From an uncultured virus (IMG/VR IMGVR_UViG_3300032227_002278) (Duplodnaviria > Heunggongvirae > Uroviricota > Caudoviricetes): a stretch of DNA of 20,000 nt. The notes beneath the pieces were generated by a model, which did no database searches, was not told where the DNA came from, and was given only the letters and a program-made list of their open reading frames with translations. The stretch lies in IMG/VR virus record IMGVR_UViG_3300032227_002278; one strand, given 5' to 3'. Positions 601 through 20,000 of this stretch are shown piece by piece (position 1 is the first letter of the stretch; each line of letters opens with the position of its first letter). A program made the position numbers and the translations under genes.

Positions 601-654
601 AATTACGATAATTCAAAAGACTGTTCTTTTAGGTGTAACACAAAGGAGTAAGTT

Positions 655-2340: not shown

Positions 2341-2475
2341 GGGTTGAGTGGGGGAATGGAAGAAGGCTCCGGCTCGCAACCGGAACTTTTTTAACTGATT
2401 TTGAATATTTGATCCGATAATGGAATTACGATAATTCTGAAGCGTATTCTTTTTGGTGTAAGGCGAGGAGGAAAA

Positions 2476-3647: not shown

Positions 3648-3718
3648 GAATTACGATAATTCTGAAGGCTGTTCTTTTAGTTGTCGCCGTGGTGGTGACA
3701 AACGGAGGATTTAAGAAT

Positions 3719-5494: not shown

Positions 5495-5701
5495 ATGAAA
5501 TCGGTTATTCATCTTCGGAAGTGGATTGCAGAACAATTGAAACAAGTTGATGGTAATGATGATGTAAATCATGTTCTTAGATATATTCGTAGAAAAACAG
5601 ATCATCCATGTTATACGGAAGATGAAGTTATTTTAGAACAATGGAGATCTTTTTTGTCTGAGATTGATTGTTATGAAATTTTGAGAACTGAATTACGATA
5701 A
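5495..5701 (+). CDS. hypothetical protein
   Basis: AAGGAG RBS; 68 aa; the last codons ELR* are supplied by the repeat element. Confidence 0.75.
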   Translation: MKSVIHLRKWIAEQLKQVDGNDDVNHVLRYIRRKTDHPCYTEDEVILEQWRSFLSEIDCYEILRTELR

Positions 5702-5758
5702 TTCCTTGTCTCTTTCTTTTAGTTGTCGCCGTGGTGGCAACTAATTATAGGAGTATTT

Positions 5759-6133
5759 ATGGCTCATCCTTATCATCATTCATTAAGTTCTGTTAAGAAG
5801 TTTGGCGGAGTTCCCCAAGACTACGAAAAAATTCATTCTTGGTTTGATGAAACCAAGTCGCATTTTGCCGATTTTAGGCATCGTGCATTGCGTCATCATT
5901 CATTGGGCATATTTTGGTGTGAAGAGAAGTTTGGTATTACTATAACCAATTCTGACGGCAAGGAAGTTCCTGTTCGTTTAATTGGCGAACAGCACGTCCG
6001 TGAGGATTGTGGTAAGATTCCCAGTATTCAAGACTGGTTTTCACAGATTAAGCCAGCTCGTTGGATGGGAGAACCGCCTGTCAAACTGGAAAGGGTTTTG
6101 GAAGAATCTTCCGAAGTTGTGGAATTACGATAA
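5759..6133 (+). CDS. DUF6915-like protein
   Basis: AGGAG RBS before ATG 5759; MAHPYHHSLSS...IHSWFDETK...RHRALRHHS...IGEQHVREDCG.IPSIQDW matches DUF6915 as recalled. Confidence 0.8.
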   Translation: MAHPYHHSLSSVKKFGGVPQDYEKIHSWFDETKSHFADFRHRALRHHSLGIFWCEEKFGITITNSDGKEVPVRLIGEQHVREDCGKIPSIQDWFSQIKPARWMGEPPVKLERVLEESSEVVELR

Positions 6134-6187
6134 TTCCAGACCTCATTCTTTTAGGTGTCACCGGGGTGGTGACAAGGAGGAACTAAA

Positions 6188-6686: not shown

Positions 6687-6767
6687 ATGGGGTTTGCAAT
6701 TGGTGTTGTAGCTGGTCTTGTTTTTATTGCAGCATTAGGAAATATAAAAGTTGAGGAAAGGAATTAG
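6687..6767 (+). CDS. putative 26-aa membrane peptide
   Basis: AGGAGG RBS; MGFAIGVVAGLVFIAALGNIKVEERN; exactly fills the gap to the next element. Confidence 0.5.
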   Translation: MGFAIGVVAGLVFIAALGNIKVEERN

Positions 6768-6817
6768 ATTACGATAATTCTGTAGTATAGTCTTTCAAGT
6801 GTTAAAAGGAGGAAAAA

Positions 6818-7369: not shown

Positions 7370-7380
7370 GTGTGACAATT

Positions 7381-7839: not shown

Positions 7840-7863
7840 GTTTTTTTTCTTGGAAGAAACGAC

Positions 7864-7892: not shown

Positions 7893-7900
7893 TGTGAGCT

Positions 7901-7956: not shown

Positions 7957-7971
7957 GGAAGTGAGAAGACG

Positions 7972-8346: not shown

Positions 8347-8368
8347 GGTTTGATATAAGTTGACAAAG

Positions 8369-8397
8369 AAAGAGGCGGGGAAACCCGCCTCTTTTTT
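8369..8397 (+). terminator. intrinsic terminator
   Basis: AAAGAGGCGGG-GAAA-CCCGCCTCTTTTTT. Confidence 0.9.
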
Positions 8398-8445
8398 ATT
8401 ACGATAATTCTGAAGCCTATTCTTTTCGGTGGAAGGAGTAAACCG

Positions 8446-8640
8446 ATGAAAAGAGGATTAGTTTTAATTTTACTTTTAACGGGCTGTAGGCACTATACAA
8501 ACCATGCCAATCGCCCTGTTCCCAAATGGTGCGCTGAAAGTGGAGTGGCTACCAGCTACTTTCCAAATGCCCCATGCAAAAAATATGAATTTGAAATTGA
8601 GAAAGTGGATCTTTCTTTCAAACTAAGGAGAGAATGGTAA
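8446..8640 (+). CDS. putative small lipoprotein
   Basis: MKRGLVLILLLTGC lipobox-like signal; AAGGAG RBS. Confidence 0.65.
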   Translation: MKRGLVLILLLTGCRHYTNHANRPVPKWCAESGVATSYFPNAPCKKYEFEIEKVDLSFKLRREW

Positions 8641-9239
8641 TGGTTAAAGTGGTTAGCATTGACGAAGTTGTTGAAATTTTAAAGAATATCAATAAAGATA
8701 TTCTTTTCACTATTAGACTTGCTACTGATGCCGATCTTCTAAAGAAAGGCAATCCTTATAACAGGGTTATTAAGGTTCAAGACCTTCAATGTTATATTGG
8801 TAGCAAAATGTATGAAGAGCAAGTGAATGACAAGCTGCAATCCAAATGGAAGCAGGAAAAGATGGTGGACCCTAATGCACCGGAACCACAAAAGTTTGTT
8901 GCTATGGAAAGACCTTTTGGTACGCATGTAGAGGGGACACCGCTGATTAAACATGAAAAGAATGTTGGCAGTCCCTATTATTGTCAGATTTCTTGCGTGA
9001 AATCGGTTTCTGTTGGGTATTTTGATGAAAAATTAAATAAAATTTCAACAGATGCCGTAAGACCTTTCTTTAAGAATAAAAAGGAAGGTTCAAGACAGAT
9101 TGAGGCTGGACTTGACACTTGTGAAGTGATAGTATATAGAACACCTTGGGTTGGGAGTTTTGTTTCTATGCAACAGCATAACAGCAAGAACCTGATTCAA
9201 GTTGATAATATGTTAACATATCAGTGCTTAACACTCTGA
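8640..9239 (+). CDS. hypothetical protein
   Basis: About 199 aa; AAGGAG RBS; ATG overlaps the upstream TAA (alternative start 8634). Confidence 0.8.
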   Translation: MVKVVSIDEVVEILKNINKDILFTIRLATDADLLKKGNPYNRVIKVQDLQCYIGSKMYEEQVNDKLQSKWKQEKMVDPNAPEPQKFVAMERPFGTHVEGTPLIKHEKNVGSPYYCQISCVKSVSVGYFDEKLNKISTDAVRPFFKNKKEGSRQIEAGLDTCEVIVYRTPWVGSFVSMQQHNSKNLIQVDNMLTYQCLTL

Positions 9240-9248
9240 TATAAACAT

Positions 9249-9517
9249 GCGCCCTTAGCTTAATGGATAAAGCCACGGTCTTCGATATAGGAGCATTGTA
9301 AGAGAAATCTTATAATGAATTGCGTCAAAGTCGGTGAACCCTTAGCTGGGAATACCGAGCCAAGCCTGGAAACAGGAAGGTGTAGAGAGTAGACGACGCA
9401 GGTCTTAACAGGTAATGCTGAAGACCAAGGTGTACTCCAGACCACAAACCGAAAGGGTAGCGAAAGCTATAGTGGTAAGCTAAACCGTAGATAGAGGTTC
9501 GATTCCTCTAGGGCGTA
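9249..9517 (+). tRNA. trnR: tRNA-Arg (anticodon TCT) interrupted by a group I intron; exons 9249-9282 and 9480-9517
   Basis: Joined exons give acceptor GCGCCCT/AGGGCGT, anticodon arm ACGGT-CT-T|CT-AA-ACCGT and T arm AGAGG-TTCGATT-CCTCT. Confidence 0.9.
9283..9479 (+). ncRNA. group I self-splicing intron (IC3-like), 197 nt, no ORF
   Basis: P1 CTT|C:GGAG with U.G at the splice site; P2 CATTGTAAGA-GAAA-TCTTATAATG; P3 TGCGTC/GACGCA; P7 GAGTA (9387-9391)/TACTC (9433-9437); P8 GGTCTT/AAGACC; GAAA-looped P9 region; terminal G at 9479. Confidence 0.92.
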
Positions 9518-9522
9518 TTAAG

Positions 9523-9552
9523 AGAGAGACTAAGTAGTCTCTCTTTTTTTTT
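9523..9552 (+). terminator. intrinsic terminator after tRNA-Arg
   Basis: AGAGAGACT-AAGT-AGTCTCTCT followed by a T-run. Confidence 0.85.
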
Positions 9553-9581
9553 GTGTGTTGGTAACAAACAAGGAGGTTGTT

Positions 9582-9830
9582 ATGTTTGTGATTCGTGTGT
9601 CTAGGGGATCTTTAAACTATGTAGCTGGTTTTTCGGAGAATCATCAAGTGGTGGTTTTCTGCGAAGAATTGGAAGAAGCTAAAGTTTTCAATACTTATCA
9701 ACAAGCATTAGGATGGGTATCTGATTATACAGATGTTGGTTATGGATTTGAATTGAAAGATGTTAATTGTATTGTGAATATGAATGAGAATACTTCTGAA
9801 AAGTATCTGAATACGATTCTTCAATTGTAA
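9582..9830 (+). CDS. hypothetical protein
   Basis: AAGGAGG RBS before ATG 9582; 82 aa. Confidence 0.75.
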   Translation: MFVIRVSRGSLNYVAGFSENHQVVVFCEELEEAKVFNTYQQALGWVSDYTDVGYGFELKDVNCIVNMNENTSEKYLNTILQL

Positions 9831-9894
9831 TTACGATAATTGCAAAAGTCTTTGTTTTAGGTGTCGAAAAGGTTTCTACTAAAAGGAGAATAAA

Positions 9895-10491
9895 ATGAAA
9901 CCCGGTTTGTTGTTGTTCCGCAAGTTCGGTGAGCGAGTTGTCGTTGGTGATTCTGTAGTGGTCGCCCCGGAATTTCCTGTAACCTTTTTTATGATGGATG
10001 GCGTTGTTCATAGCTTGTCATATATTCTAGATGACAATGATATTGAAAATGCTATTATCCCACAGGGCACAAAGGATTGGTGTTGGGTTTTAGGGGGAGA
10101 ATCCTTTAGAGAAGATAGCTGCACATTGCATCTGGTTCCTGTCAAGTCTGTTGGAACTGTTGGAACTGTTGGTGTTCTTGACAAGGCTACTATGAAACTT
10201 TCTCTTGTTAAGGGAGAAGAGGTAGTTATACCAGAGTGTTTTGGGAAGAAGGTTAGCTTCTCTCACAACTCTGTAATGGTAAGCATGGATATTATGGATG
10301 CCCATAATAAACCAGAAGCATCTACCGAAATGTATTGTGATGTTAATTCAACCATGCCCATTCTTGCACCAAATGGTGTCAAGTTTGAAGTTACAGTTGA
10401 ATCTTTCAGAGGTGTTGCTGGTTGTAGTATCCGATTCAACGCAGAACAAGATACAAGTATCATGCGTGAAGAATTGCTTACTAGAGCATAA
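9895..10491 (+). CDS. CsrA/RsmA-like protein with a large internal insertion
   Basis: N-terminal LLLFRKFGERVVVGDSVVV and C-terminal FEVTVESFRG...SIRFNAEQDTSIMREELL resemble the two halves of CsrA. Confidence 0.55.
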   Translation: MKPGLLLFRKFGERVVVGDSVVVAPEFPVTFFMMDGVVHSLSYILDDNDIENAIIPQGTKDWCWVLGGESFREDSCTLHLVPVKSVGTVGTVGVLDKATMKLSLVKGEEVVIPECFGKKVSFSHNSVMVSMDIMDAHNKPEASTEMYCDVNSTMPILAPNGVKFEVTVESFRGVAGCSIRFNAEQDTSIMREELLTRA

Positions 10492-10493
10492 CA

Positions 10494-10814
10494 ATGGATG
10501 AGCAATTCTATAACATTCCACAGAAAGGTATGGGTGTTACAGTTTGCTACTGGAGAGCTAGAGAGCCAGCCACTATCATCAAAGTTAAGGGCAAAATTTT
10601 GATGATAAGGCTGGACTCTCTATATCAACAAGCTACAAATCAACACTCCCATATCATCATCAATAATCCTTCTGGATTAACAATGACTTTCTCTAAACGC
10701 AAAAGTAATAAATGGATTATGAAAGGAGAATCAGACTCCCCAAAATCCACTTACCTAGTTCTAGGGGAAAGAGCTAAAGTTCTAAATAATGGAGTTCTAC
10801 TAGCTGCTGATTAA
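10494..10814 (+). CDS. hypothetical phage protein
   Basis: 106 aa; starts 2 nt after the upstream stop. Confidence 0.75.
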   Translation: MDEQFYNIPQKGMGVTVCYWRAREPATIIKVKGKILMIRLDSLYQQATNQHSHIIINNPSGLTMTFSKRKSNKWIMKGESDSPKSTYLVLGERAKVLNNGVLLAAD

Positions 10815-10921
10815 ACAATACAATTTGTGTTCTGGAATAAAATCTTGAACATGAATTACGATAATTACAGATCCTGTTCTTTTAAGTGTCGCTGTGGTGG
10901 TGACAACCAAGGAGGTGCGTT

Positions 10922-11257
10922 ATGGGTCTTGATAGCTTCTGGCGTTCTAATGACGGTTCTTCCCCTGTTATCGAGAAAGACTACCCTGTATGCGGTGGTA
11001 TGTTCTCTGGAAACGGAAACGATAGTTTCCGGGGGAAAGTCTACAACTCCCTGGTTGAGGACTTGACCGGAGTTTCACTCTATCAAGAGGAAATTCCTGT
11101 TGATGTTGTCAAGGATATGGCTAGGAAGTTGAAAGAAACTTCTTACGACCCTGTAATCGAAAGGGATTATGATATCGATAAAGAGGAATACGAAGGACTG
11201 GTCAATATGTTTGTTGACCATGCCGAATCAAACCACCATCTGGTTGGATGGTGGTGA
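10922..11257 (+). CDS. hypothetical phage protein
   Basis: AAGGAGGT RBS; follows the element copy at 10854; 111 aa. Confidence 0.85.
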   Translation: MGLDSFWRSNDGSSPVIEKDYPVCGGMFSGNGNDSFRGKVYNSLVEDLTGVSLYQEEIPVDVVKDMARKLKETSYDPVIERDYDIDKEEYEGLVNMFVDHAESNHHLVGWW

Positions 11258-11279
11258 TAACTAGCTCGGTACGGAGCCA

Positions 11280-11315
11280 AATTATACCCAGAGGCGTACC
11301 ACTCTGGGTATAATT
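11280..11315. other. perfect 14-bp inverted repeat (terminator or processing hairpin)
   Basis: AATTATACCCAGAG-GCGTACCA-CTCTGGGTATAATT; no U-tract. Confidence 0.6.
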
Positions 11316-11324
11316 GAGATTCAA

Positions 11325-11696
11325 ATGGAAATAAAAACAATTAAACAAGCAAAAGAAGCTGGATTTAAATTGCTAACTCCTGAAGATAGAGGAGGAGAAC
11401 GACTTATTATTAAAGGTAAAGAATATATCAGGAATGGAGAAAAAGCAAAGTATGTTTATAAATCAACATTAAAAAAAGAATTTGGATTTACTGATAGCAT
11501 TATAAAAGAACTTGGAGAACCAGATAAACTTGTTGCAAACCCACACTATAGGTCCGGTCCCAAAAGCCAATTGTATCTTTTGGAAAAGGTTTTAGATTTA
11601 GTAGAAAAAAAGAAAATAGAAAATCCATTTTTAGCAATGAAAATGGATGACAGGGTTTTTAATAATTATAAAAAACCTAAAAATAACACCCATTAG
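11325..11696 (+). CDS. hypothetical protein (Lys-rich)
   Basis: 123 aa; GFTDSIIKELGEPD...NPHY...LYLLEKV. Confidence 0.75.
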   Translation: MEIKTIKQAKEAGFKLLTPEDRGGERLIIKGKEYIRNGEKAKYVYKSTLKKEFGFTDSIIKELGEPDKLVANPHYRSGPKSQLYLLEKVLDLVEKKKIENPFLAMKMDDRVFNNYKKPKNNTH

Positions 11697-11764
11697 AATT
11701 ACGATAATTTCTCAGCCCATTCTTTTAAGTGTCGCCGGGGTGGCGATAACCAAGGAGGTGCGTT

Positions 11765-11962
11765 ATGGAAGAAGTTCAACTTACCGCCGAAGAGAAGGCT
11801 CAACTCAAACTTCGGGAAAAACTTGCTGCACAGCAAGAAGCCGAAGCCGAAAAAGAAGGTATGTCAATAGGACGAGCGAGAATGTTCGCACCAGTCCGAA
11901 AAGGTAAACGAAGCGGTGGACACCTACACGGTGCGTCCCGCCAAAACAGAGCTAAGGTTTAA
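11765..11962 (+). CDS. hypothetical protein (acidic N-half, basic C-half)
   Basis: AAGGAGGT RBS; follows the element copy at 11697. Confidence 0.8.
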   Translation: MEEVQLTAEEKAQLKLREKLAAQQEAEAEKEGMSIGRARMFAPVRKGKRSGGHLHGASRQNRAKV

Positions 11963-12046: not shown

Positions 12047-12088
12047 ATGATATGCAAGGTGTTTCCATATCGACACCTTGCATATCAT
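12047..12088. other. 16-bp inverted repeat
   Basis: ATGATATGCAAGGTGT-N10-ACACCTTGCATATCAT. Confidence 0.65.
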
Positions 12089-12138: not shown

Positions 12139-12837
12139 GTGTCTGTTCCCAATCACAATGTATTGATGAAACTACCTGAATTCATAAAGTATCTTGATGA
12201 AACAGTTTCAAAGATTTCCCAAGATTCAAAACTCTATCACCAATTGAAAACTAGTGGTGTATATTTAATTGATGAAAATACCAAAATTCCAACCGAATTG
12301 GATTGGGATTTTAACAATAACATTCTTGCAAGTAATTGTCAATACACAGGAGTTTTTTGTCACGAAACTTCAAGGTTCTTTTACATAACTTTAAAACAGA
12401 TTTACCCCCAATCCAAAGAGTATATTGAAAAATATAAAAATAAGCGGGAAAAAGATAAAATTATTAAAGATAAAGAAAATGCACTATTTTATTGGCTACA
12501 AGATGAATCAATCGTCTGCTTAGTAGCAAAAGATGATTATAACACAAACGCAAAACTAGGTCCTGTAAACGCAGGAGATATCTTTGATATCAGCACCAGT
12601 ACCAGAGACTATTCATCTGGATATAATAAAAATCCAGCTAAATTAGCCAGAGGCTCCCTATTGATTCCTACAACATGGAGAAATATAAAATATGAACCTA
12701 CTTATTCAGAGATAATAAGAATGAGACCAATTGAAGTTATCAACCTAAGAGAAAAGAATTATCCTGATTATAATCCTCGTTATGACTATTGGGAAAAAAA
12801 ATTAAATAAAAACTTCCCACTTAGACAAACTAGCTGA
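12139..12837 (+). CDS. hypothetical protein
   Basis: 232 aa; GTG start with AGGAG RBS. Confidence 0.8.
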   Translation: MSVPNHNVLMKLPEFIKYLDETVSKISQDSKLYHQLKTSGVYLIDENTKIPTELDWDFNNNILASNCQYTGVFCHETSRFFYITLKQIYPQSKEYIEKYKNKREKDKIIKDKENALFYWLQDESIVCLVAKDDYNTNAKLGPVNAGDIFDISTSTRDYSSGYNKNPAKLARGSLLIPTTWRNIKYEPTYSEIIRMRPIEVINLREKNYPDYNPRYDYWEKKLNKNFPLRQTS

Positions 12838-13068
12838 TTAACTTTACATATCAACAATCAAATAATAATAAGATATATTGTTATTTAATTGTTATTTGAT
12901 TGTTATTCTATTGTTATTTTATAAGCTATAACTTATTATTTTTAAGTTGTAACCAATAATAACAATTATATAACTATAACTTATTGTAAAATTATAATAA
13001 GTTATAGTTATAAACTTAATTTGATAATAAGAATATACTATTTAGCTATAGTATTTACCTAATAACTA
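12838..13068. repeat. very AT-rich non-coding tract with 11-bp tandem repeats and inverted repeats
   Basis: ATTGTTATT at 12877, 12888, 12899, 12910; 17-bp perfect inverted repeat at 12969-12985/12996-13012. Confidence 0.8.
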
Positions 13069-13200
13069 AAGACTTCCTTATATAGAAGGTCTTCAGGGGT
13101 TGTACCAACAGCCCCCATATCAACAAACCAGAATTACGATAATTATAGACCCCATTCTTTTAAGTGTCGCCGGGGTGGCGAACAACAAAGGAAAAAGAAA

Positions 13201-13743
13201 ATGCTAGAATACGATTGTGAAGTCTCCTACAAGAACAATAAAGGACACACAGTTAAAGTATATCAAGATGAAAACCCACAGTCACCAAGAGATAATGACA
13301 ATCTTGGAAGCATGACATTTTTCCACAATAGATATAATCTTGGCGACAAACATAATCATACCCCAGAATCTTTCAATGAGTTTCTGGAATACAATTCCGA
13401 TGGAATCGTAGCCGTAAAAGTTTATGGCTATGAACACGGACAACTAACTATATCAACCAAACCATTCTCTTGCATCTTTGATAGCGGTGTACTTGGATAT
13501 ATCCATGTGTCCAAATTGGATGCTATGAAAGCATTCGAACAAAAAGAATGGACAAAAGAACTTGAAGATAAGATTGTTAAATGCCTTGAGCAAGAAGTTG
13601 AAACATATGATCAATACCTTGTAGGTGATGTATATGGATATATCGTCTTCGATGAAGATGACGAAGAGATTGATTCCTGCTGGGGATTCTATGGTAGCGA
13701 TATCAATAAAAATGGCATAAAAGATTATGCTGATAATATCTAA
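13201..13743 (+). CDS. hypothetical phage protein
   Basis: 180 aa; EVETYDQYLVGDVYGY...DSCWGFYG; follows the element copy at 13132. Confidence 0.85.
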   Translation: MLEYDCEVSYKNNKGHTVKVYQDENPQSPRDNDNLGSMTFFHNRYNLGDKHNHTPESFNEFLEYNSDGIVAVKVYGYEHGQLTISTKPFSCIFDSGVLGYIHVSKLDAMKAFEQKEWTKELEDKIVKCLEQEVETYDQYLVGDVYGYIVFDEDDEEIDSCWGFYGSDINKNGIKDYADNI

Positions 13744-13917
13744 TTGATATAGCCGATACAGCCATATAAACATGGCTGTATCGGCATTTTACATATCATC
13801 ATCTGTATATCAATATGATTATTCAAGGGTTGTACCAAAGGAAATCCAGAATTACGATAATTGCAAAGCCCATTCTTTCAAGTGTCACCGAGGTGGTGAC
13901 TAACAAAGGGGAATACA

Positions 13918-14130
13918 ATGCAAACTGAATACTTTGTGTGGGTCATGGATGAAAATGATAATGTTGTAAAGAGTGGTGTATGCTCAACCAAATATGAAGC
14001 TATCAGCTTCTCAAGGGTTCGCAGCAAAAAGTATAAGGCTACCCGTAGCCTTTGTGCTGAACATATCGTTGGAATGCCCAATGATAAGTATACCCTTATC
14101 TGGCAAGAACAAGTTACTATTGGTAACTAA
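13918..14130 (+). CDS. hypothetical protein
   Basis: Cassette ORF after element 13850; AAGGGG RBS. Confidence 0.8.
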   Translation: MQTEYFVWVMDENDNVVKSGVCSTKYEAISFSRVRSKKYKATRSLCAEHIVGMPNDKYTLIWQEQVTIGN

Positions 14131-14202
14131 GACTAATTACGATAATTCCAGACCACTTTCTTTCAAGTGTCGAAAAGGTTTCAACCAACAAAGGAGAATG
14201 CT

Positions 14203-14373
14203 ATGCAATCTTTTACCCCCGTCCGAAGCGTAATGTTCGTTGTCTCCTACAATGGAGATATGCTTTGGAAATACCCAACCAAAAAAGAAGCTGAAGAAGC
14301 TCTATGTTGGGCTAGCTGGAGATATAACTGGGCAGCTACCGATATGAAAATTGTTGAAGTAGTAAAGTTATAA
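14203..14373 (+). CDS. hypothetical protein
   Basis: AAGGAG RBS before ATG 14203; after element 14135; 56 aa. Confidence 0.75.
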   Translation: MQSFTPVRSVMFVVSYNGDMLWKYPTKKEAEEALCWASWRYNWAATDMKIVEVVKL

Positions 14374-14538
14374 CGATGATAGGTAGCTTCTTACATATCA
14401 ACATGGAGATAGTAAGCATATAACTTACTATCTCCATTTTCTTCCTTCAGGGGCTATAAAACAAACCCCGAATTACGATAATTCTAAACCCCATTCTTTC
14501 AAGTGTCGAAAAGGTTTCAACCAACAAAGGAGAATACT

Positions 14539-14757
14539 ATGAACGAGTCAACTGTGATTACTGGTGCAGACAATATCGCCGCTTTTCAGATTATTCGTCT
14601 GTATCACGCCCTGAGATTGCAAGAGAGAACTGGCATGACATTGTCTGCCGGTTCTGTTATCAAGTATGTTAATACATATTACGGCGTGAAAGGTCGTACC
14701 GCTAAAAAAGTAGCGGATAACCTGAAACTGAAGTATCCAGATATTCTTAGTCATTAA
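14539..14757 (+). CDS. hypothetical protein
   Basis: AAGGAG RBS before ATG 14539; after element 14471; 72 aa. Confidence 0.8.
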   Translation: MNESTVITGADNIAAFQIIRLYHALRLQERTGMTLSAGSVIKYVNTYYGVKGRTAKKVADNLKLKYPDILSH

Positions 14758-14923
14758 GAATATCTGGATACTAAAGGATATATCGAAAGATATATCCTTT
14801 AGTATTAACTTACTTCAGGGGTTGTACCAACAGCCCCCATATCAACAAACCAGAATTACGATAATTACAAACCACACTCTTTCAAGTGTCACCGAGGTGG
14901 TGACAATCAAACGGAGAACGATT

Positions 14924-15331
14924 ATGAACGATATCATCAGAACCGCCCTTTCCAAGGCGTACACGCCAGTCAATCCTCTTGCACCTGGTAAATACCAAGT
15001 GAAAGAGCGTATCACCTTGGAGATAGAAGGAACTATCACCAAAGGGGCAGACCAAAGCCGTGTCCCAACTGTTGATATTCCCTGGAAGAAAGTATGCGCC
15101 CACCTGGCTGAAAAGCTAGGCTGCGTAGGGGACGCTGCTATCAACCAACTCACGGATGCTATCCGTGATGCAATGAATAACAACAAGGATAAAGATACGG
15201 CTATTGAAAGCCATATCAAGAACCTTGAATCTGCTACCAAGAAAGTTGAATCTTTCTTGGGACAGCTTCCACCAAAGACTGTCAGCGGAAGAACTTCCGT
15301 TGATGTAGTAGTTAGAGAGGTTGCTCTCTAA
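14924..15331 (+). CDS. hypothetical protein
   Basis: GGAG RBS before ATG 14924; after element 14854; 135 aa. Confidence 0.85.
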   Translation: MNDIIRTALSKAYTPVNPLAPGKYQVKERITLEIEGTITKGADQSRVPTVDIPWKKVCAHLAEKLGCVGDAAINQLTDAIRDAMNNNKDKDTAIESHIKNLESATKKVESFLGQLPPKTVSGRTSVDVVVREVAL

Positions 15332-15486
15332 CTATAAAGGGGAATATAGAAAGCTATATTCCCCTTTATCAAATTACTTCAGGGGTTGTACCAACAGCCC
15401 CCATATCAACAAACCCGAATTACGATAATTCTAGACCCCATTCTTTTAAGTGTCGCCAAGGTGGTGACAAACCAAGGAGGTGCGTT

Positions 15487-15744
15487 ATGGAAGAATGCTG
15501 CGATTACTGCCAGGCGGACGATGTAACCACAGAAGAGGTTTATGGAAAAAACCTCTGCGAAGACTGCCAAGACCTCGAAATGGCAGGCGAATTAGAAGAC
15601 TTCATCTTTGATGATGAGGATGATGTAGATTATGATAAAAAACCTTATTATCATTGGGAAGATGATGAGGAAGATGATGAGGATTATGGCGATTGGGAAG
15701 ATGACGATGACGATGATGATGATGATGATGATAGTCGCCATTGA
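15487..15744 (+). CDS. CxxC/CxxC zinc-finger protein with an extremely acidic tail
   Basis: CDYC...CEDC followed by a D/E-rich C-terminus; AAGGAGGT RBS. Confidence 0.8.
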   Translation: MEECCDYCQADDVTTEEVYGKNLCEDCQDLEMAGELEDFIFDDEDDVDYDKKPYYHWEDDEEDDEDYGDWEDDDDDDDDDDDSRH

Positions 15745-15894
15745 TATCAAAGGATAGCAGACTCTAGTGGTCTGCTATCTCATTCTTCTTCAGGGGTTGT
15801 ACCAACGCCTCCCATATCAACAAACCCGAATTACGATAATTACAAAGCCCGCCCTTTTAAGTGTCGCCAAGGTGGTGACAACAGGAGAACGACA

Positions 15895-16092
15895 ATGGAA
15901 AACCTTCGTGCTAATACACTTCTCATGATGTGCCGCAAGGCTTTCATGAAAGGTGTCGCAAATATCAAACTCAATCCCAATGGTATCACTCCAGAAGAAC
16001 TGGAAGCTACCGCTAAAAAGTTGGGAATGGGATATCACAAAGTTAGCAACTTGGAAGTTAAGCTATACCGCAATAGCCGCCCACAAAGCTAA
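15895..16092 (+). CDS. hypothetical protein (basic)
   Basis: AGGAG RBS; after element 15829. Confidence 0.8.
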   Translation: MENLRANTLLMMCRKAFMKGVANIKLNPNGITPEELEATAKKLGMGYHKVSNLEVKLYRNSRPQS

Positions 16093-16158
16093 TTACGATA
16101 ATTCCAGACCACTTTCTTTCAAGTGTCACCGAGGTGGTGACTAACAAAGGGGAATACA

Positions 16159-16506
16159 ATGCGAGCTTATCCTAAGAAACTGCTTTCTTTTTTCGACTGG
16201 AACCAACTACTGGGTAAACGGACTAGTAAGAAGCTAGCCAATAATACCTATGTCGAAAAAATCGATAGCAATACCATCGGTATTCGCTACCACCGCACCC
16301 ATGTAGTCCAAGTGCGATCAGATGATACCTATCGTCTGACCACTAATGGCTGGACTACTCCCACCACCAAGGTGCGGTTAAATAAATATAGCCCGCTCAA
16401 TATCTGGCAAAAGAACTTCGAATGGTTCTATAACCACAATGGGGAAGATAAATCCTTCTTCGATGGGATTGTGGTAGATAGGGCTGGTAATCCAGTCTCT
16501 GTCTGA
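16159..16506 (+). CDS. hypothetical phage protein
   Basis: 115 aa; YHRTHVV...LTTNGWTTPTTKVRLN; after element 16091. Confidence 0.85.
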   Translation: MRAYPKKLLSFFDWNQLLGKRTSKKLANNTYVEKIDSNTIGIRYHRTHVVQVRSDDTYRLTTNGWTTPTTKVRLNKYSPLNIWQKNFEWFYNHNGEDKSFFDGIVVDRAGNPVSV

Positions 16507-16648
16507 TTATAAAAGGGTGTGATAGAGATATCACACCCTGTATCTTTACTTGCTTCAGGGGTTGTACCTTTCCATATCAACAATTACGATAATTACAAAC
16601 CACACTCTTTCAAGTGTCACCGAGGTGGTGACAACAGGAGGTTTCACA

Positions 16649-16849
16649 ATGCCAAACGACCTGCCCGAAGACTGGTATCTTGACCAGTCCTACGAAGACC
16701 GATATAGCTATGATGAACCATCAGAACCAGATGATTACTGGGCTGATGGCGATGCCCTAGCGTCTGCAGGGCATGGCATGGACGAAGATTACAACGGCTA
16801 TGACGATTGGGATGACTCTGAAGCAATAGATTGCGATGCAGAGTTTTGA
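16649..16849 (+). CDS. small, highly acidic protein
   Basis: AGGAGG RBS before ATG 16649; DGDALASAGHGMDEDY; 66 aa. Confidence 0.8.
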   Translation: MPNDLPEDWYLDQSYEDRYSYDEPSEPDDYWADGDALASAGHGMDEDYNGYDDWDDSEAIDCDAEF

Positions 16850-17010
16850 TATCTAGAGACTAACTAGGGATAATAATCCTATCCCTAGTTAGCTCATTCT
16901 TCTTCAGGGGTTGTACCAACGCCTTCCATATCAACAACCCCGAATTACGATAATTCCAAACCCCATTCTTTTAAGTGTCACCGAGGTGGTGACAAACGGA
17001 GGAGTTGACA

Positions 17011-17250
17011 ATGCAAAATGAAATCGAACACCTTCCACCCGCACAACCCCTTGACCAGGAATGTGAGTGCTGGTCTTGGAAAAAAATGAATGGTAAATGG
17101 ACTTGCGAACATTGCGGGTCTACCACTTCATTTGCTGAATCCGATTGCGGATTCTCAGATGATGATAACGATTCTGATATCGATGGATATCATGATCATT
17201 GTTCCGAGGTTGCATTTTATAGCAACCGCCATCAATTCGATGGCGAGTAA
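17011..17250 (+). CDS. small Cys-containing (zinc-ribbon-like) acidic protein
   Basis: GGAGG RBS; CEC...WTCEHCG; after element 16943. Confidence 0.75.
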   Translation: MQNEIEHLPPAQPLDQECECWSWKKMNGKWTCEHCGSTTSFAESDCGFSDDDNDSDIDGYHDHCSEVAFYSNRHQFDGE

Positions 17251-17317
17251 TTACGATAATTCCAAACCCCATTCTTTTAAGTGTCACCGAGGTGGTGACA
17301 AAACAACGGAGGTTTCT

Positions 17318-17557
17318 ATGTCTTATCATCGCACCGCTGACCGCCTGTTTGATGCCTGCCTTCTCGACCTTTATCCAGACGCTGGTCCCGTCTGGATGGA
17401 TTTTGGTATCGACGAACGAACCTTCCCCGCCTACCAAAGAGCGGTAAAAACCGGGAAGGTCACCGCAGACCAGCTACACAAAGCTGTATGCGACGGCAGA
17501 AAACTATCCGCCCTCATCGGAGTGGAAGTTAAAACAATGTTTGATATGTTCGCCTAG
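17318..17557 (+). CDS. hypothetical protein
   Basis: GGAGG RBS before ATG 17318; after element 17249; 79 aa. Confidence 0.8.
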   Translation: MSYHRTADRLFDACLLDLYPDAGPVWMDFGIDERTFPAYQRAVKTGKVTADQLHKAVCDGRKLSALIGVEVKTMFDMFA

Positions 17558-17706
17558 GACATATCAACACAGGAGATAGTAACCACTATCTCCTGTGCTA
17601 TTAACTTACTTCGGGGGTTGTACCCTTCCATATCAACAATTACGATAATTCCAAACCACATTCTTTCAAGTGTCACCGAGGTGGTGACAAACAAAGGAAA
17701 AAGACC

Positions 17707-17910
17707 ATGCCATATCTCACTGTTACCCCTGCCTACGGGCGTGATTATAAAACCAAAAAAGAAGCTGTACACGCATGGGAAACTGGCAAAGACTTCCAAG
17801 TGCAATCTATTTTTGATAGTGGATATATCAATAAAGCAGATGCACAACCTGGCACTACTGTTAATATCCGATATAAACGGATGACACAGATTGCAGTAGT
17901 AAAAGTTTGA
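17707..17910 (+). CDS. hypothetical phage protein
   Basis: VTPAYGRDYKTKKE...GKDF; after element 17638. Confidence 0.85.
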   Translation: MPYLTVTPAYGRDYKTKKEAVHAWETGKDFQVQSIFDSGYINKADAQPGTTVNIRYKRMTQIAVVKV

Positions 17911-18061
17911 TATATAAGAGTATAGACTAATGTCTATACTCTATCTTCTATATCAACGGGGGTTGTACCAACGCCCCCATATCAACAAACCAGAATTACG
18001 ATAATTCCAAACCACACTCTTTCAAGTGTCACCGAGGTGGTGACAAACAAAGGAACAAACA

Positions 18062-18256
18062 ATGCACGAATCAACAATCAAGACCCTCTTCACACTGCGT
18101 GAAAACGCCACCAGCGAAAATAACGCTGTATGGCGCAAAGCCTTTGAAAAGGCGGATTACGACCTCTGTAAAAAGATTACAGATAATCTGGCTAAGATAG
18201 ATGATGCTATCTTCGCTGCTATCCGCAGCCTAAGAAACGATAGCATGTCTTTATAG
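18062..18256 (+). CDS. hypothetical protein
   Basis: AAGGA RBS; after element 17994. Confidence 0.8.
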   Translation: MHESTIKTLFTLRENATSENNAVWRKAFEKADYDLCKKITDNLAKIDDAIFAAIRSLRNDSMSL

Positions 18257-18400
18257 CCAGATAGCACTAGCTAGGACTATTGAGTCCTAGCTAGTTTAAC
18301 TTACTTCGGGGGTTGTACCCTTCCATATCAACAATTACGATAATTCCAAACCACACTCTTTCAAGTGTCACCAAGGTGGTGACAAACAAAGGAACAAACA

Positions 18401-18610
18401 ATGAATATGCTTCGTAACGCTGCTTTTTTCCTTTTCGGTATCGCCCTTATCTGTCTGGTTGTATTCGGAGAAGGGTATATCTTGGGCGCACATATCCATG
18501 CGCCTGAGATAACTCAAGGCATCAACTGGAATATGCACTTCTTCTTCATGGGAGTCGTGTTCCTAACAGGATGCCTTAGCTTACTGAATCTATCAGTAAG
18601 TAAAAAGTAA
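18401..18610 (+). CDS. small membrane protein (2 predicted TM helices)
   Basis: Two hydrophobic stretches; after element 18333. Confidence 0.75.
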   Translation: MNMLRNAAFFLFGIALICLVVFGEGYILGAHIHAPEITQGINWNMHFFFMGVVFLTGCLSLLNLSVSKK

Positions 18611-18686
18611 ATTACGATAATTATAAATACCATCTTTTCAATTGTCACCACAATGGTTGTGGTGATAAACAACGGAGGTTTTTGAT

Positions 18687-18923
18687 ATGGAAAGCTATGG
18701 TTTCCTTGGTTTCGCTACCGAGCCGGTTGCAAACGATAATGGGGTATATCACTCCCCAGATTACCTTGCAGACTGGTTGTCTGCACATGGCGACCGCTAT
18801 GGCGGTAAGTACGCCATCTTTCATGAGATGGGTCACGATAAGCTCAAAAAGCTTATCGATAAAGAAGGTATCACCAATTGGGGTGATGCATGGGACTGGG
18901 CAGCTAAACGCCCACTAGGCTAA
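18687..18923 (+). CDS. hypothetical protein
   Basis: GGAGG RBS; after element 18610. Confidence 0.8.
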   Translation: MESYGFLGFATEPVANDNGVYHSPDYLADWLSAHGDRYGGKYAIFHEMGHDKLKKLIDKEGITNWGDAWDWAAKRPLG

Positions 18924-19130
18924 TATAAAGCTAGATATGGATATGGAAACATATCCATATCCAGCTTCCATATCATTAAGGGGTTGTACCATACAGCCAG
19001 AGTCTCAATCCCTGAATTACGATAATTACAAACAGGCTTCTTTTAAGTGTAACAAGTTTACCACAGTGGTAAACAAGTTACTTTTCGAAACTCGCAACCG
19101 GCTAGGCGCAGGTTGCTATCGGAGGCTATC

Positions 19131-19352
19131 ATGCAAAATATCACTTTCCGCAAAACTTCCCGTGGCTACATCGCTTCTTTCGATGGTGTCAGAAGCAAGC
19201 CCTCAAAAACAAAAAGGCAGGCTGAAATCAGCTTGAACAAAAAGCTAGCAGAAGCCGAACTCAGCGATGCAGGTAGACTGCATGCTGGATTCTCCATGCT
19301 AGAGACATCTGAAGACCATGCCGAGACATGGGACGCTAACTGGACCCTGTAA
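19131..19352 (+). CDS. hypothetical protein
   Basis: GGAGG RBS before ATG 19131; after element 19015; 73 aa. Confidence 0.8.
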   Translation: MQNITFRKTSRGYIASFDGVRSKPSKTKRQAEISLNKKLAEAELSDAGRLHAGFSMLETSEDHAETWDANWTL

Positions 19353-19391
19353 GGGTCTAGTTGGACACCAGCGGGTGCTATCGCCCGCTGG

Positions 19392-19511
19392 TTGTCTCTA
19401 TCATTACTTTCTTCAGGGGTTGTACCCTTTGTTTGTCTCTATCATTACTTTCTTCAGGGGTTGTACCCTTTGTTTGTCTCTATCATTACTTTCTTCAGGG
19501 GTTGTACCCTT
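19392..19511 (+). repeat. 41-bp tandem repeat, about 2.9 identical copies
   Basis: TTGTCTCTATCATTACTTTCTTCAGGGGTTGTACCCTTTGT at 19392, 19433 and 19474 (last copy 38 bp). Confidence 0.95.
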
Positions 19512-19670
19512 CCATATCAACATGGCTTATCAATATGGCATATCAACAAAGTGAATTACGATAATTACAAACAGGCTTCTTTTAAGTGTAACAAGTTTAC
19601 CACAGTGGTAAACAAGTTACTTGGTTCGGCGGGTTTGACTGGATATCACCCGCTATCGGAGGCTACTACA

Positions 19671-20000
19671 ATGGCTCAATCAATCGTCCGCACTGTCCGC
19701 ACCGCCCAGTATAAGGGCAAGGCTTACATCCTTTGCTACATCGGGGCGACCAAATTTGGTCCCCGTGCCCAACTGGGCTTCTGGGGACCAAGTGGCACCC
19801 GCTTCTGGGTGGATGCTAACTTGGTGCAGGAAACTGCACCAACCGATATAAATGAGCAAGGCTGGCGTGTAACGCCAGCAGCTCCTGCTAAGGCGTATAC
19901 GCCTGTGCAGCAGGTGCAAGCACCTTCTAGCAGCGAAGATGAGCTGCTAGAAGCCCGAGCCGCTCAATATGCGGCTATGGACGAAGATCTCCCCTTCTAA
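19671..20000 (+). CDS. hypothetical protein with an SSB-like acidic C-terminal tail (DEDLPF)
   Basis: GGAGG RBS before ATG 19671; 109 aa; P/Q/A-rich linker then AMDEDLPF and TAA at 19998-20000. Confidence 0.8.
   Translation: MAQSIVRTVRTAQYKGKAYILCYIGATKFGPRAQLGFWGPSGTRFWVDANLVQETAPTDINEQGWRVTPAAPAKAYTPVQQVQAPSSSEDELLEARAAQYAAMDEDLPF

What the first reader, a model, noticed from the sequence alone, without database searches (positions are those of the whole stretch)
13069..20000. Array of 17 single-gene cassettes with a stereotyped regulatory frame
Seen: every ORF from 13201 to 20000 (17 ORFs, 56-180 aa, with no evident similarity to each other) has its own element, leader and RBS. Most also end in a unique hairpin plus GGGGTTGTACC box. 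Leader similarity runs up to the ATG, sometimes into the first codons (ATGGAAGAA at 11765 and 15487), then stops. Established analogue: PeSL promoter/stem-loop cassettes that mediate modular shuffling in T4-type phages. The motifs here are different. Inference: a plug-in platform for acquiring, expressing and swapping host-takeover or anti-defence genes, integron-like in layout but with no integrase in view. This is the best candidate for an undescribed system in the window.
Basis: partly seen in the sequence, partly recalled or inferred. Interest (0 to 1): 0.88.

Follow-up and report, generated by a model that had tools for sequence, protein, structure and literature searches.

The report
Phage promoter-bounded single-gene cassette array
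An uncultured freshwater phage places the same short control sequence in front of nearly every small gene, and these repeats also appear to be where related strains gain and lose genes, as was already described for T4-type phages.

Summary
All 17 ORFs between 13201 and 20000 have their own copy of one element: an invariant 13-mer (AATTACGATAATT), a conserved leader block, usually a 7-bp/3-nt-loop hairpin, then SD and ATG. 11 of 16 assessable cassettes end in a unique perfect hairpin plus GGGTTGTACC.

The element is not confined to the array. There are 27 copies in the window, all on the + strand (0.04 expected), and 15 more on seven short contigs of a ~97% relative.

It does not fit the sigma-70 consensus, although a near-consensus sigma-70 promoter sits in front of a tRNA-like sequence in the same window. 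I read it as the phage's own, probably early, promoter-leader. No transcription start data exist and no polymerase or sigma gene is in view.

Relatives show:
- an extra cassette bounded by a 57-nt or longer direct repeat that includes the element;
- a two-cassette skip with its junction inside the repeated leader;
- an element-only indel, absent in 4 of 4 other runs.

Elsewhere, four cassettes are colinear.

The closest known system is the PeSL terminator/promoter cassettes of T4-type phages, with different motifs. The integron-like reading is not supported. Cassette functions are unknown. I rate it a new variant of a known kind.

The parts
13069..13131 (+). Left border of the array: hairpin, GGGTTGTACC box (13097-13106) whose GGGG pairs with a downstream CCCC, then ATATCAACA (13117-13125)
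13132..13849 (+). Cassette 1: core 13132-13144, leader hairpin, ATG 13201, ORF to 13743 (180 aa, phrog_6186 of unknown function), unique hairpin 13752-13785, box 13827-13836
13850..14134 (+). Cassette 2: core 13850, ORF 13918-14130 (70 aa); no 3' hairpin; the next core starts 4 nt after the stop
14135..14470 (+). Cassette 3: core 14135, variant leader stem GTCGAAA/TTTCAAC, ORF 14203-14373 (56 aa), hairpin 14403-14437, variant G-tract GGGG...CCCC in place of the box
14471..14853 (+). Cassette 4: core 14471, ORF 14539-14757 (72 aa, phrog_19182), hairpin about 14767-14806, box 14819-14828
14854..15417 (+). Cassette 5: core 14854, ORF 14924-15331 (135 aa), hairpin about 15334-15369, box 15383-15392
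15418..15828 (+). Cassette 6: core 15418; leader identical to that at 11697 through ATGGAAGAA; ORF 15487-15744 (85 aa, Cys-rich N-terminus, poly-Asp/Glu tail); hairpin 15752-15780; box 15794-15803
15829..16090 (+). Cassette 7: core 15829, ORF 15895-16092 (65 aa); its stop TAA overlaps the next core; no hairpin
16091..16581 (+). Cassette 8: core 16091, ORF 16159-16506 (115 aa, Pfam Kyano_Gp96, phrog_554), hairpin 16514-16539, box 16559-16568
16582..16942 (+). Cassette 9: core 16582, ORF 16649-16849 (66 aa, very acidic), hairpin 16860-16892, box 16908-16917
16943..17248 (+). Cassette 10: core 16943, ORF 17011-17250 (79 aa, Cys pairs, acidic); its stop overlaps the next core
17249..17637 (+). Cassette 11: core 17249, ORF 17318-17557 (79 aa), hairpin about 17568-17597, box 17615-17624
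17638..17993 (+). Cassette 12: core 17638, ORF 17707-17910 (67 aa), hairpin 17917-17942, box 17960-17969. Skipped together with cassette 13 in one contig of run X5
17994..18332 (+). Cassette 13: core 17994, ORF 18062-18256 (64 aa), hairpin about 18266-18295, box 18310-18319
18333..18609 (+). Cassette 14: core 18333 (the 102-nt unit 18296-18397 is 97% identical to 17601-17702), ORF 18401-18610 (69 aa, hydrophobic); its stop abuts the next core
18610..19014 (+). Cassette 15: core 18610, longer leader hairpin (10-12 bp, loop TGG), ORF 18687-18923 (78 aa), hairpin about 18928-18967, box 18981-18990
19015..19553 (+). Cassette 16: core 19015, long leader (116 nt from core to ATG) with an extended hairpin, ORF 19131-19352 (73 aa), hairpin, then three tandem 41-nt copies (19384-19511), each carrying a box
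19554..20000 (+). Cassette 17: core 19554 (first 71 nt identical to 19013-19083), ORF 19671-20000 (109 aa). Contigs of two runs continue past 20000 into sequence resembling the 18979 box, so the array goes on
601..654 (+). Element without leader hairpin, ahead of the kinase-like gene 655-1113
2424..2475 (+). Element without leader hairpin, ahead of 2476-2913
3649..3718 (+). Element with hairpin, ahead of the 475-aa gene 3719-5146
5691..5758 (+). Element with hairpin. The upstream gene reads through the core and stops inside it (GAA TTA CGA TAA)
6123..6187 (+). Element with hairpin at a hypervariable locus. The relative L004 has an extra 136-aa cassette here between direct repeats of the gene tail plus element. 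L005 lacks 6177-6316. One X5 contig puts an element 18 nt before 6514
6767..6817 (+). Element (GATTACGATAATT, no hairpin) that is itself an indel. Window bases 6759-6817 are replaced by 5 nt (or 3 nt) in L005 and in contigs of X2, X5, X6 and X7, where the two flanking genes overlap as ATGA
8397..8445 (+). Element (TATTACGATAATT, no hairpin) directly after a canonical terminator
9829..9894 (+). Element with the variant stem GTCGAAA/TTTCTAC; the upstream stop overlaps the core
10854..10921 (+). Element with hairpin; its SD-to-ATG leader (AACCAAGGAGGTGCGTTATGG) is shared with 11697 and 15418
11697..11764 (+). Element with the compensatory stem variant GTCGCC/GGCGA; its leader is identical to 15418 through the third codon

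Best explanation
Region 13069-20000 and beyond is a hyperplastic accessory-gene region of an uncultured freshwater phage whose contig is at least 82 kb. Each small ORFan there is an autonomous expression unit.

The unit consists of:
1. a phage-specific promoter whose recognition block is the invariant, AT-rich 13-mer AATTACGATAATT;
2. a conserved leader (TCTTTYARGTGT), usually followed by a 7-bp stem with a 3-nt NGG loop that is kept by compensatory changes and probably acts in the RNA as a 5' stabiliser or regulator site;
3. SD and ATG at a fixed distance;
4. the ORF;
5. in most units, a unique perfect hairpin (terminator or 3' stabiliser) and a shared G-tract box.

My favoured transcription start is the near-invariant A five bases after the 13-mer. 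The same element heads genes and short operons across the whole window and on other contigs of a relative. It is therefore the phage's general, probably early, promoter. I expect it to be read by phage-specified machinery (a phage RNA polymerase, sigma or activator) and not by the host sigma-70 alone.

Neighbouring units share 50-140 nt of near-identical DNA. Homologous recombination between them deletes, inserts and swaps whole cassettes, and even seeds new promoter copies, as proposed for PeSLs.

What is shown: the anatomy, the statistics, the covariation and the indels in relatives. What is inferred: promoter activity, the start site, which polymerase reads it, and the recombination mechanism.
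For: Distribution and conservation:
- 27 of 27 copies are on the coding strand, all intergenic or overlapping the upstream stop, against 0.04 expected.
- Positions 2-13 are invariant in 27 of 27 copies. Position 18 is A in 26 of 27. Block 25-36 is nearly invariant. Nothing upstream is conserved and positions 14-24 vary.
- Core-to-ATG distance is 65-70 nt in 20 copies, 49-54 in the 4 hairpinless copies, and 77, 116 and 117 in the 3 with long hairpins.

Leader hairpin (25 aligned copies):
- 96.6% of cells are paired, 3 of 7 pairs carry compensatory changes (13 cells), and 0 of 500 shuffles reach the covariation score.
- Slid controls pair at 22-80%.
- G-U is the commonest closing pair, which favours an RNA-level role.

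Promoter reading:
- 12 of 16 array cassettes are followed by strong hairpins before the next element, so downstream genes need their own start.
- No + strand sigma-70 match falls on the elements. The best sigma-70 match in the window (TTGACT-16-TATAAT with TG, 11 of 12) sits at 1351-1378, in front of a tRNA-like sequence.
- A review passage states that jumbo-phage virion-RNAP early promoters are ~10-nt AT-rich highly conserved motifs centred near -10 and differ between phages (PMC7598289, passages read). The 13-mer is centred at -11 if A18 is +1.

Element elsewhere: 15 further copies lie on 7 contigs of one metagenome.

Recombination:
- L004 has an extra 136-aa cassette flanked by direct repeats of 57 nt or more.
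- X5 skips 17699->18401, between units that are 97% identical over 102 nt.
- The element-only indel at 6759-6817 appears in 4 of 4 runs and in L005.
- Leader subtypes are shared by non-adjacent cassettes and the identity ends at the ATG.

Foreign or accessory character of the array:
- Array ORFs have GC3 of 0.44 against 0.31 for the left-hand ORFs (p = 1e-4).
- 14 of 17 have no PHROG match.
Against: - There is no transcript data. No RNA run holds the stretch, so promoter activity and the start site are inferred.
- No RNA polymerase, sigma or activator gene lies in the window or on the seven related contigs, and the rest of the genome could not be read.
- The 13-mer is a 5-3-5 inverted repeat (AATTA-CGA-TAATT), which would also suit a dimeric DNA-binding protein.
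- The two conserved blocks lie about 23 bp apart, as -35 and -10 elements do. A start near position 37-39 is therefore also possible.
- The array hairpins are followed by interrupted pyrimidine runs, not clean T-tracts, so termination is uncertain.
- Stability is also seen. L006 is colinear with the window over four cassettes (1,576 nt, 97.4%).
- Most evidence for variation comes from short-read contigs that can break or mis-join at repeats. Several joints have short sides: 21-51 nt for 6181->6514, 17699->18401 and 18319->19008.
- The 'goes back' joint 15786->13090 is better explained as a variant of the repeated spacer, which L006 also carries, than as a reordering.
- Only one metagenome gave sequences that I could inspect directly.
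Confidence: 0.6

Rival explanations
1. RNA-level elements, not promoters. Long polycistronic transcripts are cut at or near the conserved sequence by a host or phage endoribonuclease. The leader hairpin then protects the new 5' end, or the leader is the operator of a translational regulator that controls the whole gene class.
For: - All genes are on one strand, and 4 of 16 array cassettes and several left-hand genes run into the next element with no hairpin between.
- The hairpin uses G-U pairs and covaries.
- A second small stem (22-25 with 32-35) is 81.6% paired.
- The distance to SD and ATG is fixed.
Against: - 12 of 16 cassettes carry strong hairpins just upstream of the next element, which makes read-through supply doubtful.
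- The most conserved part is an AT-rich 13-mer with no stable RNA fold.
- Four copies lack the hairpin altogether.
- In the window's lineage an element is present between two genes that overlap (ATGA) in the other strains. That is easier to explain as gaining a promoter.
- No Rfam family matches.
Confidence: 0.15
2. The 13-mer is the binding site of a dimeric phage regulator, either a repressor acting like mycobacteriophage 'stoperators' or an activator. It is not the polymerase recognition sequence. Transcription starts elsewhere in or near the element.
For: - The 13-mer is a 5-3-5 inverted repeat, 13 bp long, in one orientation relative to transcription, often at stop codons.
- This matches what I recall of stoperators, which are 13-bp asymmetric oriented sites in intergenic regions.
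Against: - Density is far higher than I recall for stoperators: 27 copies in 20 kb.
- The site always comes with the leader block at fixed spacing, followed by an SD.
- No repressor, integrase or other sign of a temperate lifestyle was found in the window.
- A regulator site and a promoter are not mutually exclusive.
Confidence: 0.1
3. A dense promoter region only. The repeats are promoters, but they play no special part in gene flux. The differences between strains are ordinary illegitimate indels or assembly artefacts at repeats.
For: - Four cassettes are colinear in L006.
- Several joints have short sides or lie in repeats where aligners and assemblers are unreliable.
- Some indels are not at elements: 10504->10598 inside an ORF, and a 332-nt insertion at 11982/11983.
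- L005's 140-nt deletion (6177-6316) has only loose microhomology.
Against: - L004's extra cassette is new sequence flanked on both sides by the same 57 nt or more, comprising the gene tail plus the element.
- The two-cassette skip joins units that are 97% identical over 102 nt.
- Of the 11 listed joints that do not involve the tRNA/intron regions, 8 have an end in an element or box. Repeats inflate this count.
Confidence: 0.15
4. An integron-like platform. A site-specific recombinase encoded elsewhere captures and excises cassettes at the unique hairpins and boxes.
For: Single-gene cassettes, each with a unique 3' hairpin and a shared short box, lie in one orientation.
Against: - Every cassette has its own promoter-like element.
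- The hairpins are perfect 11-18-bp palindromes with 4-7-nt loops and no unpaired bases.
- The box GGGTTGTACC and ATATCAACA do not fit the integron core motif GTTRRRY or its complement, as I recall them.
- No integrase is in the window or on the related contigs.
- The observed junctions lie within long homologous stretches.
Confidence: 0.04

Closest known systems
PeSLs (promoter-early stem-loops) of T4-type phages (Arbiol et al. 2010, PMC2839356, sections 13 and 16 read; Comeau et al. 2014, PMC4122927, abstract read)
   Same: - A composite intergenic unit that runs from the upstream stop codon through a stem-loop and promoter to the SD and start of the next gene, conserved over about 100 bp.
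- Stem-loops with G-tracts followed by C-tracts. Here the GGGG of the box pairs with a downstream CCCC.
- Concentrated ahead of ORFans in a plastic region.
- Close relatives differ by cassettes flanked by the units.
- Homologous recombination is the proposed mechanism.
   Different: - The promoter part is not the sigma-70 consensus but an invariant 13-mer plus a conserved leader.
- There are two kinds of hairpin: a cassette-specific one after the ORF and a shared, covarying one in the leader.
- Density is much higher. PeSLs number about 50 per genome. Here there are 27 in 20 kb.
- The host phage is unclassified, and no T4 core gene is in view.
- Mini-circles were not tested.
Phage-polymerase promoter sets (T7-type single-subunit RNAP promoters; early promoters of jumbo-phage virion RNAPs, review PMC7598289, passages read)
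   Same: - One highly conserved, phage-specific, AT-rich motif repeated in one orientation ahead of many genes.
- A 13-nt invariant block, then 4 looser bases, then a near-invariant purine. This is the geometry I recall for T7-type promoters (recognition block -17 to -5, start at +1).
- It also fits 'about 10 nt, AT-rich, centred near -10'.
   Different: - No polymerase gene is available to pair with the motif.
- The motif is not found in 50,697 phage records, in IMG/VR or in the papers searched.
- A conserved transcribed leader and hairpin follow the motif.
Morons / SPO1-type host-takeover modules (recalled)
   Same: Small genes of unknown function, each with its own promoter and terminator, packed into an early accessory region.
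   Different: Here the units are near-identical copies of one regulatory frame. Classic morons carry unrelated promoters and are scattered.
Integron cassette arrays
   Same: One-gene cassettes in one orientation, each followed by a sequence-unique hairpin.
   Different: - The cassettes have their own promoters.
- The hairpins lack attC features.
- There is no integrase.
- Junctions lie in long homology, not at a fixed cut site.

Membership tests
PeSL (T4-type promoter-early stem-loop) | Sigma-70-consensus -35 and -10 boxes with an AT-rich upstream region | tested here: not met
   The sigma-70 scan places no + strand match on the 17 array elements. Nothing upstream of the 13-mer is conserved.
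PeSL (T4-type promoter-early stem-loop) | A stable stem-loop, often polyG then polyC, acting as a terminator or attenuator | tested here: inconclusive
   GGGG...CCCC stems form at the box, and unique 11-18-bp hairpins follow 12 of 16 ORFs. Terminator activity was not tested, and the T-tracts are weak.
PeSL (T4-type promoter-early stem-loop) | The unit spans from the upstream stop codon to the SD and start of the downstream gene | tested here: met
   Stop codons lie inside or against the core in at least 8 copies. SD and ATG lie at a fixed distance.
PeSL (T4-type promoter-early stem-loop) | Enriched in plastic regions ahead of ORFans; indels between close relatives are bounded by the units | tested here: met
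   14 of 17 array ORFs have no PHROG match. See also the L004 extra cassette, the X5 two-cassette skip and the 6767 element indel. Caveat: these are short-read contigs.
PeSL (T4-type promoter-early stem-loop) | Mini-circles formed by exchange between neighbouring units | not testable with these tools
   Only contigs, not raw reads, could be laid.
Integron | IntI tyrosine recombinase next to the array | tested here: not met
   There is no recombinase family in the window or on related contigs. The rest of the genome was not available.
Integron | attC sites: imperfect hairpins with unpaired bases and conserved core sites | tested here: not met
   The hairpins are perfect palindromes. The boxes do not fit the core motif, which I recalled and did not take from a tool.
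Integron | Promoterless cassettes read from one common promoter | tested here: not met
   17 of 17 cassettes carry their own element.
T7-type single-subunit RNAP promoter | A contiguous conserved block of about 17 nt upstream of a purine start | tested here: inconclusive
   13 invariant, then 4 semi-conserved, then A in 26 of 27 copies fits that geometry. The start site is unmapped.
T7-type single-subunit RNAP promoter | A cognate polymerase gene in the same genome | not testable with these tools
   No whole genome is held. The contig is at least 82 kb, but only 20 kb is visible.
Jumbo-phage virion-RNAP early promoter | About 10 nt, AT-rich, highly conserved, centred near -10, ahead of early operons; split beta/beta'-like genes in the genome | tested here: inconclusive
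   The shape of the motif fits. The polymerase genes, genome size and timing are unknown.
N4 virion-RNAP hairpin promoter (recalled) | A hairpin with a 5-7-bp stem and 3-nt loop is required in every promoter | tested here: not met
   4 of 27 copies have no hairpin and 3 have a weak one. The invariant part lies about 22 nt upstream of the hairpin.

The most novel reading that the evidence does not exclude
The element is the promoter of an undescribed phage-encoded transcription system in a large freshwater phage, and it behaves as a self-propagating regulatory module. It copies itself between genes that were previously translationally coupled, as at 6767. It also captures foreign, higher-GC genes behind a ready-made leader. 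The promoter set would then be both the phage's expression code and its gene-acquisition machinery.
Probability: 0.2. Interest if true: 0.7.

Novelty: new variant of a known kind. Interest (0 to 1): 0.5.

Why it matters
- It gives a sequence handle (the 13-mer plus leader) that marks one transcription class of an uncultured lake phage seen in runs from at least eight studies. With it one can predict its polymerase or sigma specificity, pull out its accessory genes and follow their turnover in metagenomes.
- It extends PeSL-type modular shuffling, where regulatory repeats double as recombination substrates, beyond sigma-70 promoters and possibly beyond T4-type phages.
- The element-only indel is a clean natural case of a promoter being gained between two coupled genes.
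- The 17 or more ORFans, several of them extremely acidic, are candidates for host-takeover or anti-defence screens. Nothing here shows such a function.

Tried and rejected
Searches for the element elsewhere:
- Whole genome of the window: none is held.
- Megablast of the window against phages: only a 42-nt match to a Pelagibacter phage at 1889-1930.
- Distant blastn of one element against phages: no match.
- Pattern scans: IMG/VR 0 and genome contigs 0.
- Protein-guided loci in IMG/VR from three window proteins: none, none, and one weak 5-kb locus.
- LR756511.1, a 595-kb phage that shares the 475-aa protein at 32% identity, has no element: 1+1 one-mismatch hits against 2+2 for the control.

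Literature and RNA families:
- Literature searches for the three motifs: 0, then 18 papers of which the 10 listed look unrelated from their titles.
- Rfam at the gathering threshold and at E up to 1: nothing on the elements.

Sequencing runs:
- No RNA holder was listed among the 14 runs, so expression could not be examined.
- Joints I did not use as evidence: 8702->14759 (side 21); 1381->9436 and 1930->9375 (similar tRNA/intron-like repeats); 15786->13090 (a spacer variant that L006 also has); 18319->19008 and 17624->19008 (the left side is only the repeated box).

Ideas rejected:
- The weak NCBIfam SigF hit of the 475-aa protein (16.5 bits against a cut-off of 261) is noise. By my reading its motif (REFVSNAIDA) looks like a GHKL ATPase box.
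- A small leader stem at 22-25 with 32-35 is plausible but shows no covariation.
- A minus-strand sigma-70-like reading of the element (TTGAAA-16-TATCGT, 9 of 12, in 10 of the 17 array copies, plus 6798 on the left) is probably coincidental, because all genes are on the + strand.
- PADLOC hit 0 of 19 proteins. NCBIfam gave no array ORF a meaningful score; the only array hit was 13.6 bits against a cut-off of 425.
- The protein Atlas search of the first cassette returned only unnamed viral clusters.

Full report
**What is there.** The window is 20 kb of small genes, nearly all on the + strand. Its content looks like phage:
- a kinase-like ATPase;
- an HNH endonuclease on the minus strand;
- a gene whose homologues some phage records annotate as pyrimidine dimer DNA glycosylase (phrog_624, 'DNA binding protein');
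- a Kyano_Gp96 domain;
- two tRNAs.

No whole genome is held. Exact look-up of four window proteins puts them on a contig of up to 82,064 bp. The 14 listed runs, from eight studies, are labelled metagenome, freshwater metagenome or lake water metagenome, and all are DNA.

**The observation.** AATTACGATAATT (up to 1 mismatch) occurs 27 times, always on the + strand, against 0.04 expected. Seventeen copies lie in 13069-20000, one in front of each of the 17 ORFs. The ORFs are unrelated to each other; the best pair among 41 window ORFs has E = 0.12.

Of the 16 cassettes whose 3' end is visible, 11 end in a unique perfect hairpin plus an exact GGGTTGTACC box. One has a hairpin and a variant G-tract. 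Four run straight into the next element. Leader identity up to and into the first codons is real: 26 of 26 nt between 11748-11773 and 15470-15495.

Ten more copies head genes or short operons at 601-11697, so the element belongs to the whole region and not just the array.

**Anatomy of the element** (position 1 is the first A of the 13-mer):
- Positions 2-13 are invariant in 27 of 27 copies.
- Positions 14-17 are loosely conserved, and position 18 is A in 26 of 27.
- Positions 19-24 vary.
- Positions 25-36 (TCTTTYARGTGT) are nearly invariant.
- Nothing upstream is conserved.

In 20 copies a stem follows at 35-41 paired with 45-51, with a 3-nt NGG loop. RNAfold predicts it in 17 of them and leaves it unfolded in 3 whose stem has a C-A mismatch. 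Three copies have a longer hairpin at the same place, and four have none.

On 25 aligned copies the stem is 96.6% paired. Three of its 7 pairs show changes on both sides (13 cells), and no shuffle of 500 reaches the covariation score. G-U pairs are frequent, which points to a role in RNA.

The distance from core to ATG is 65-70 nt in the 20 standard copies and 49-54 nt in the four without a hairpin. A smaller stem at 22-25 with 32-35 is possible but shows no covariation.

**What it most likely is.** I read the element as a promoter plus leader, for these reasons:
- It has the orientation of the genes and stands at a fixed distance from SD and ATG.
- It often begins at the upstream stop codon.
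- In 12 of 16 array units it follows a strong hairpin, so the next gene needs its own start.

It is not a sigma-70 consensus promoter, because no + strand match falls on it. The best sigma-70 match in the window is TTGACT-16-TATAAT with an upstream TG, and it stands at 1351-1378 before a tRNA-like sequence. By inference, the host consensus is ordinary and the 27 elements are read by something phage-specific.

Two geometries fit:
- A contiguous promoter with the 13-mer as recognition block and a start at A18. This matches my recollection of T7-type promoters. It also matches a review's statement that jumbo-phage virion-polymerase early promoters are ~10-nt AT-rich, highly conserved, phage-specific motifs centred near -10 (PMC7598289, passages read).
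- A two-block promoter, with blocks about 23 bp apart and a start near position 37-39, at the foot of the hairpin.

I cannot choose between them. No RNA run holds the stretch, and no polymerase or sigma gene is in the window or on the related contigs. The 13-mer is also a 5-3-5 inverted repeat, so a dimeric regulator site remains possible.

**Relatives.** One metagenome yielded seven short contigs with 15 further copies. Four of these contigs are parts of the genome not in the window, so the element is used widely.
- **L006** is colinear with 15171-16746 at 97.4% over four cassettes. It has 40 differences, none in a 13-mer.
- **L004** matches 4983-6172 and then carries an extra 136-aa ORF absent from the window. 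The ORF is flanked on both sides by the same 57 nt or more: the last 26 nt of the upstream gene plus the element.
- **L005** lacks 6177-6316. It also lacks the element at 6767: window 6759-6817 is replaced by 5 nt, and the flanking genes overlap as ATGA.

I then laid contigs of four runs from four studies on the window. Three results bear on the array:
- The same element-only gap appears in 4 of 4 runs.
- One X5 contig joins 17699 to 18401. It drops two cassettes, and the junction lies inside units that are 97% identical over 102 nt.
- Two runs continue past 20000 into a further box, so the array goes on.

Other joints point to further gene flux near elements: 6181->6514, 11264->11729, and a 332-nt insertion at 11982/11983. 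However, several have short sides, and contigs can break or mis-join at repeats. One apparent reordering (15786->13090) is better read as a spacer variant that L006 also shows.

**Mechanism.** The data fit homologous recombination between neighbouring units, the mechanism proposed for PeSLs (PMC2839356, sections 13 and 16 read). Leader subtypes shared by non-adjacent cassettes, with identity stopping at the ATG, are what such exchange predicts.

The array ORFs are compositionally distinct from the left-hand genes. Mean GC3 is 0.44 against 0.31 (p = 1e-4), and the G>C skew is absent. That fits genes drawn from another pool.

Nothing supports a site-specific, integron-like system. The cassettes have their own promoters, the hairpins are perfect palindromes, and no recombinase is in view.

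**What the cassettes encode.** This is unknown. Hits among the 17 array ORFs were:
- Pfam: 1 of 17 (Kyano_Gp96).
- PHROGs: 3 of 17, all of unknown function.
- PADLOC: none.
- NCBIfam: none at a meaningful score.

Three ORFs are very acidic. That composition is also seen in DNA-mimic proteins, but I did not test the idea.

**Novelty.** The motif was not found in 50,697 phage records, IMG/VR, one genome per prokaryote species, or the papers searched. The principle, however, is known. I rate this a new variant of a known kind: PeSL-like composite regulatory cassettes built on a non-sigma-70, phage-specific promoter-leader, at unusually high density, in an unclassified freshwater phage.

Noticed in passing
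window 1351-2148: A near-consensus sigma-70 promoter (TTGACT-16-TATAAT with TG, 1351-1378) precedes a tRNA-like 5' half at 1388. tRNA-Ile(TAT) lies at 1982-2056 and tRNA-Leu(TAA) at 2064-2148.
   Followed up: partly
window 1403-1930: A stretch of about 526 nt carrying a minus-strand HNH endonuclease ORF (1438-1836) is skipped in contigs of two runs (X5, X7). It looks like a mobile insertion, possibly an intron, in a tRNA-like gene. Rfam found no group I intron match.
   Followed up: partly
window 9250-9525 and 1889-1930: There is a second tRNA-like gene with an insert; 9264-9511 is replaced by 50 nt in X5. It shares a roughly 40-nt motif with 1889-1930. That motif is the only part of the window matching a known phage (Pelagibacter phage HTVC120P, 42 nt at 97.6%).
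   Followed up: partly
window 12840-13060: A very AT-rich, gene-free stretch with 11-nt iterons (ATTGTTATTT-like, 3-4 copies) and long inverted repeats lies directly left of the array. It could be an origin or a module boundary. GC content and GC skew change here.
   Followed up: no
window, 20 sites (e.g. 2544, 2558, 2602, 13117, 17561, 19540): ATATCAACA occurs 20 times (18 on the + strand) against 0.32 expected. Most copies lie between the box and the 13-mer, but three are inside ORF 2476-2913 and some lie right after stop codons. Its role is unknown; it is reminiscent of a protein-binding box.
   Followed up: partly
window 19384-19511: A 41-nt unit containing the GGGTTGTACC box is triplicated in tandem (93-100% identical).
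   Followed up: no
window 13201-20000 vs 133-11962: Array ORFs have higher GC3 (0.44 against 0.31, p = 1e-4) and no G>C skew. GC content rises along the array from 0.36 to 0.56.
   Followed up: yes
window 13854-18641, minus strand: Read on the minus strand, 10 of the 17 array elements (and 6798 on the left) match TTGAAA-16-TATCGT, 9 of 12 to sigma-70. These would be antisense promoters facing the upstream genes. Probably coincidence.
   Followed up: no
window 3719-5146: A 475-aa protein has a motif that I read as a GHKL-ATPase N-box (REFVSNAIDA). It is 32% identical over 99% of its length to an ORF of a 595-kb uncultured phage (LR756511.1), which lacks the element.
   Followed up: partly
window 15487-15744, 16649-16849, 17011-17250: Three cassette proteins are extremely acidic, and two have Cys pairs. 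DNA-mimic proteins have a similar composition, but this was not tested.
   Followed up: no
window 12139-12837: A 232-aa ORF with a GTG start and only 31% GC has no element. It is preceded by a long perfect hairpin (about 12047-12086). In run X2, 332 nt are inserted just upstream, at 11982/11983.
   Followed up: no
L001 1135-1839: A related contig carries a D12-class N6-adenine DNA methyltransferase downstream of an element.
   Followed up: partly
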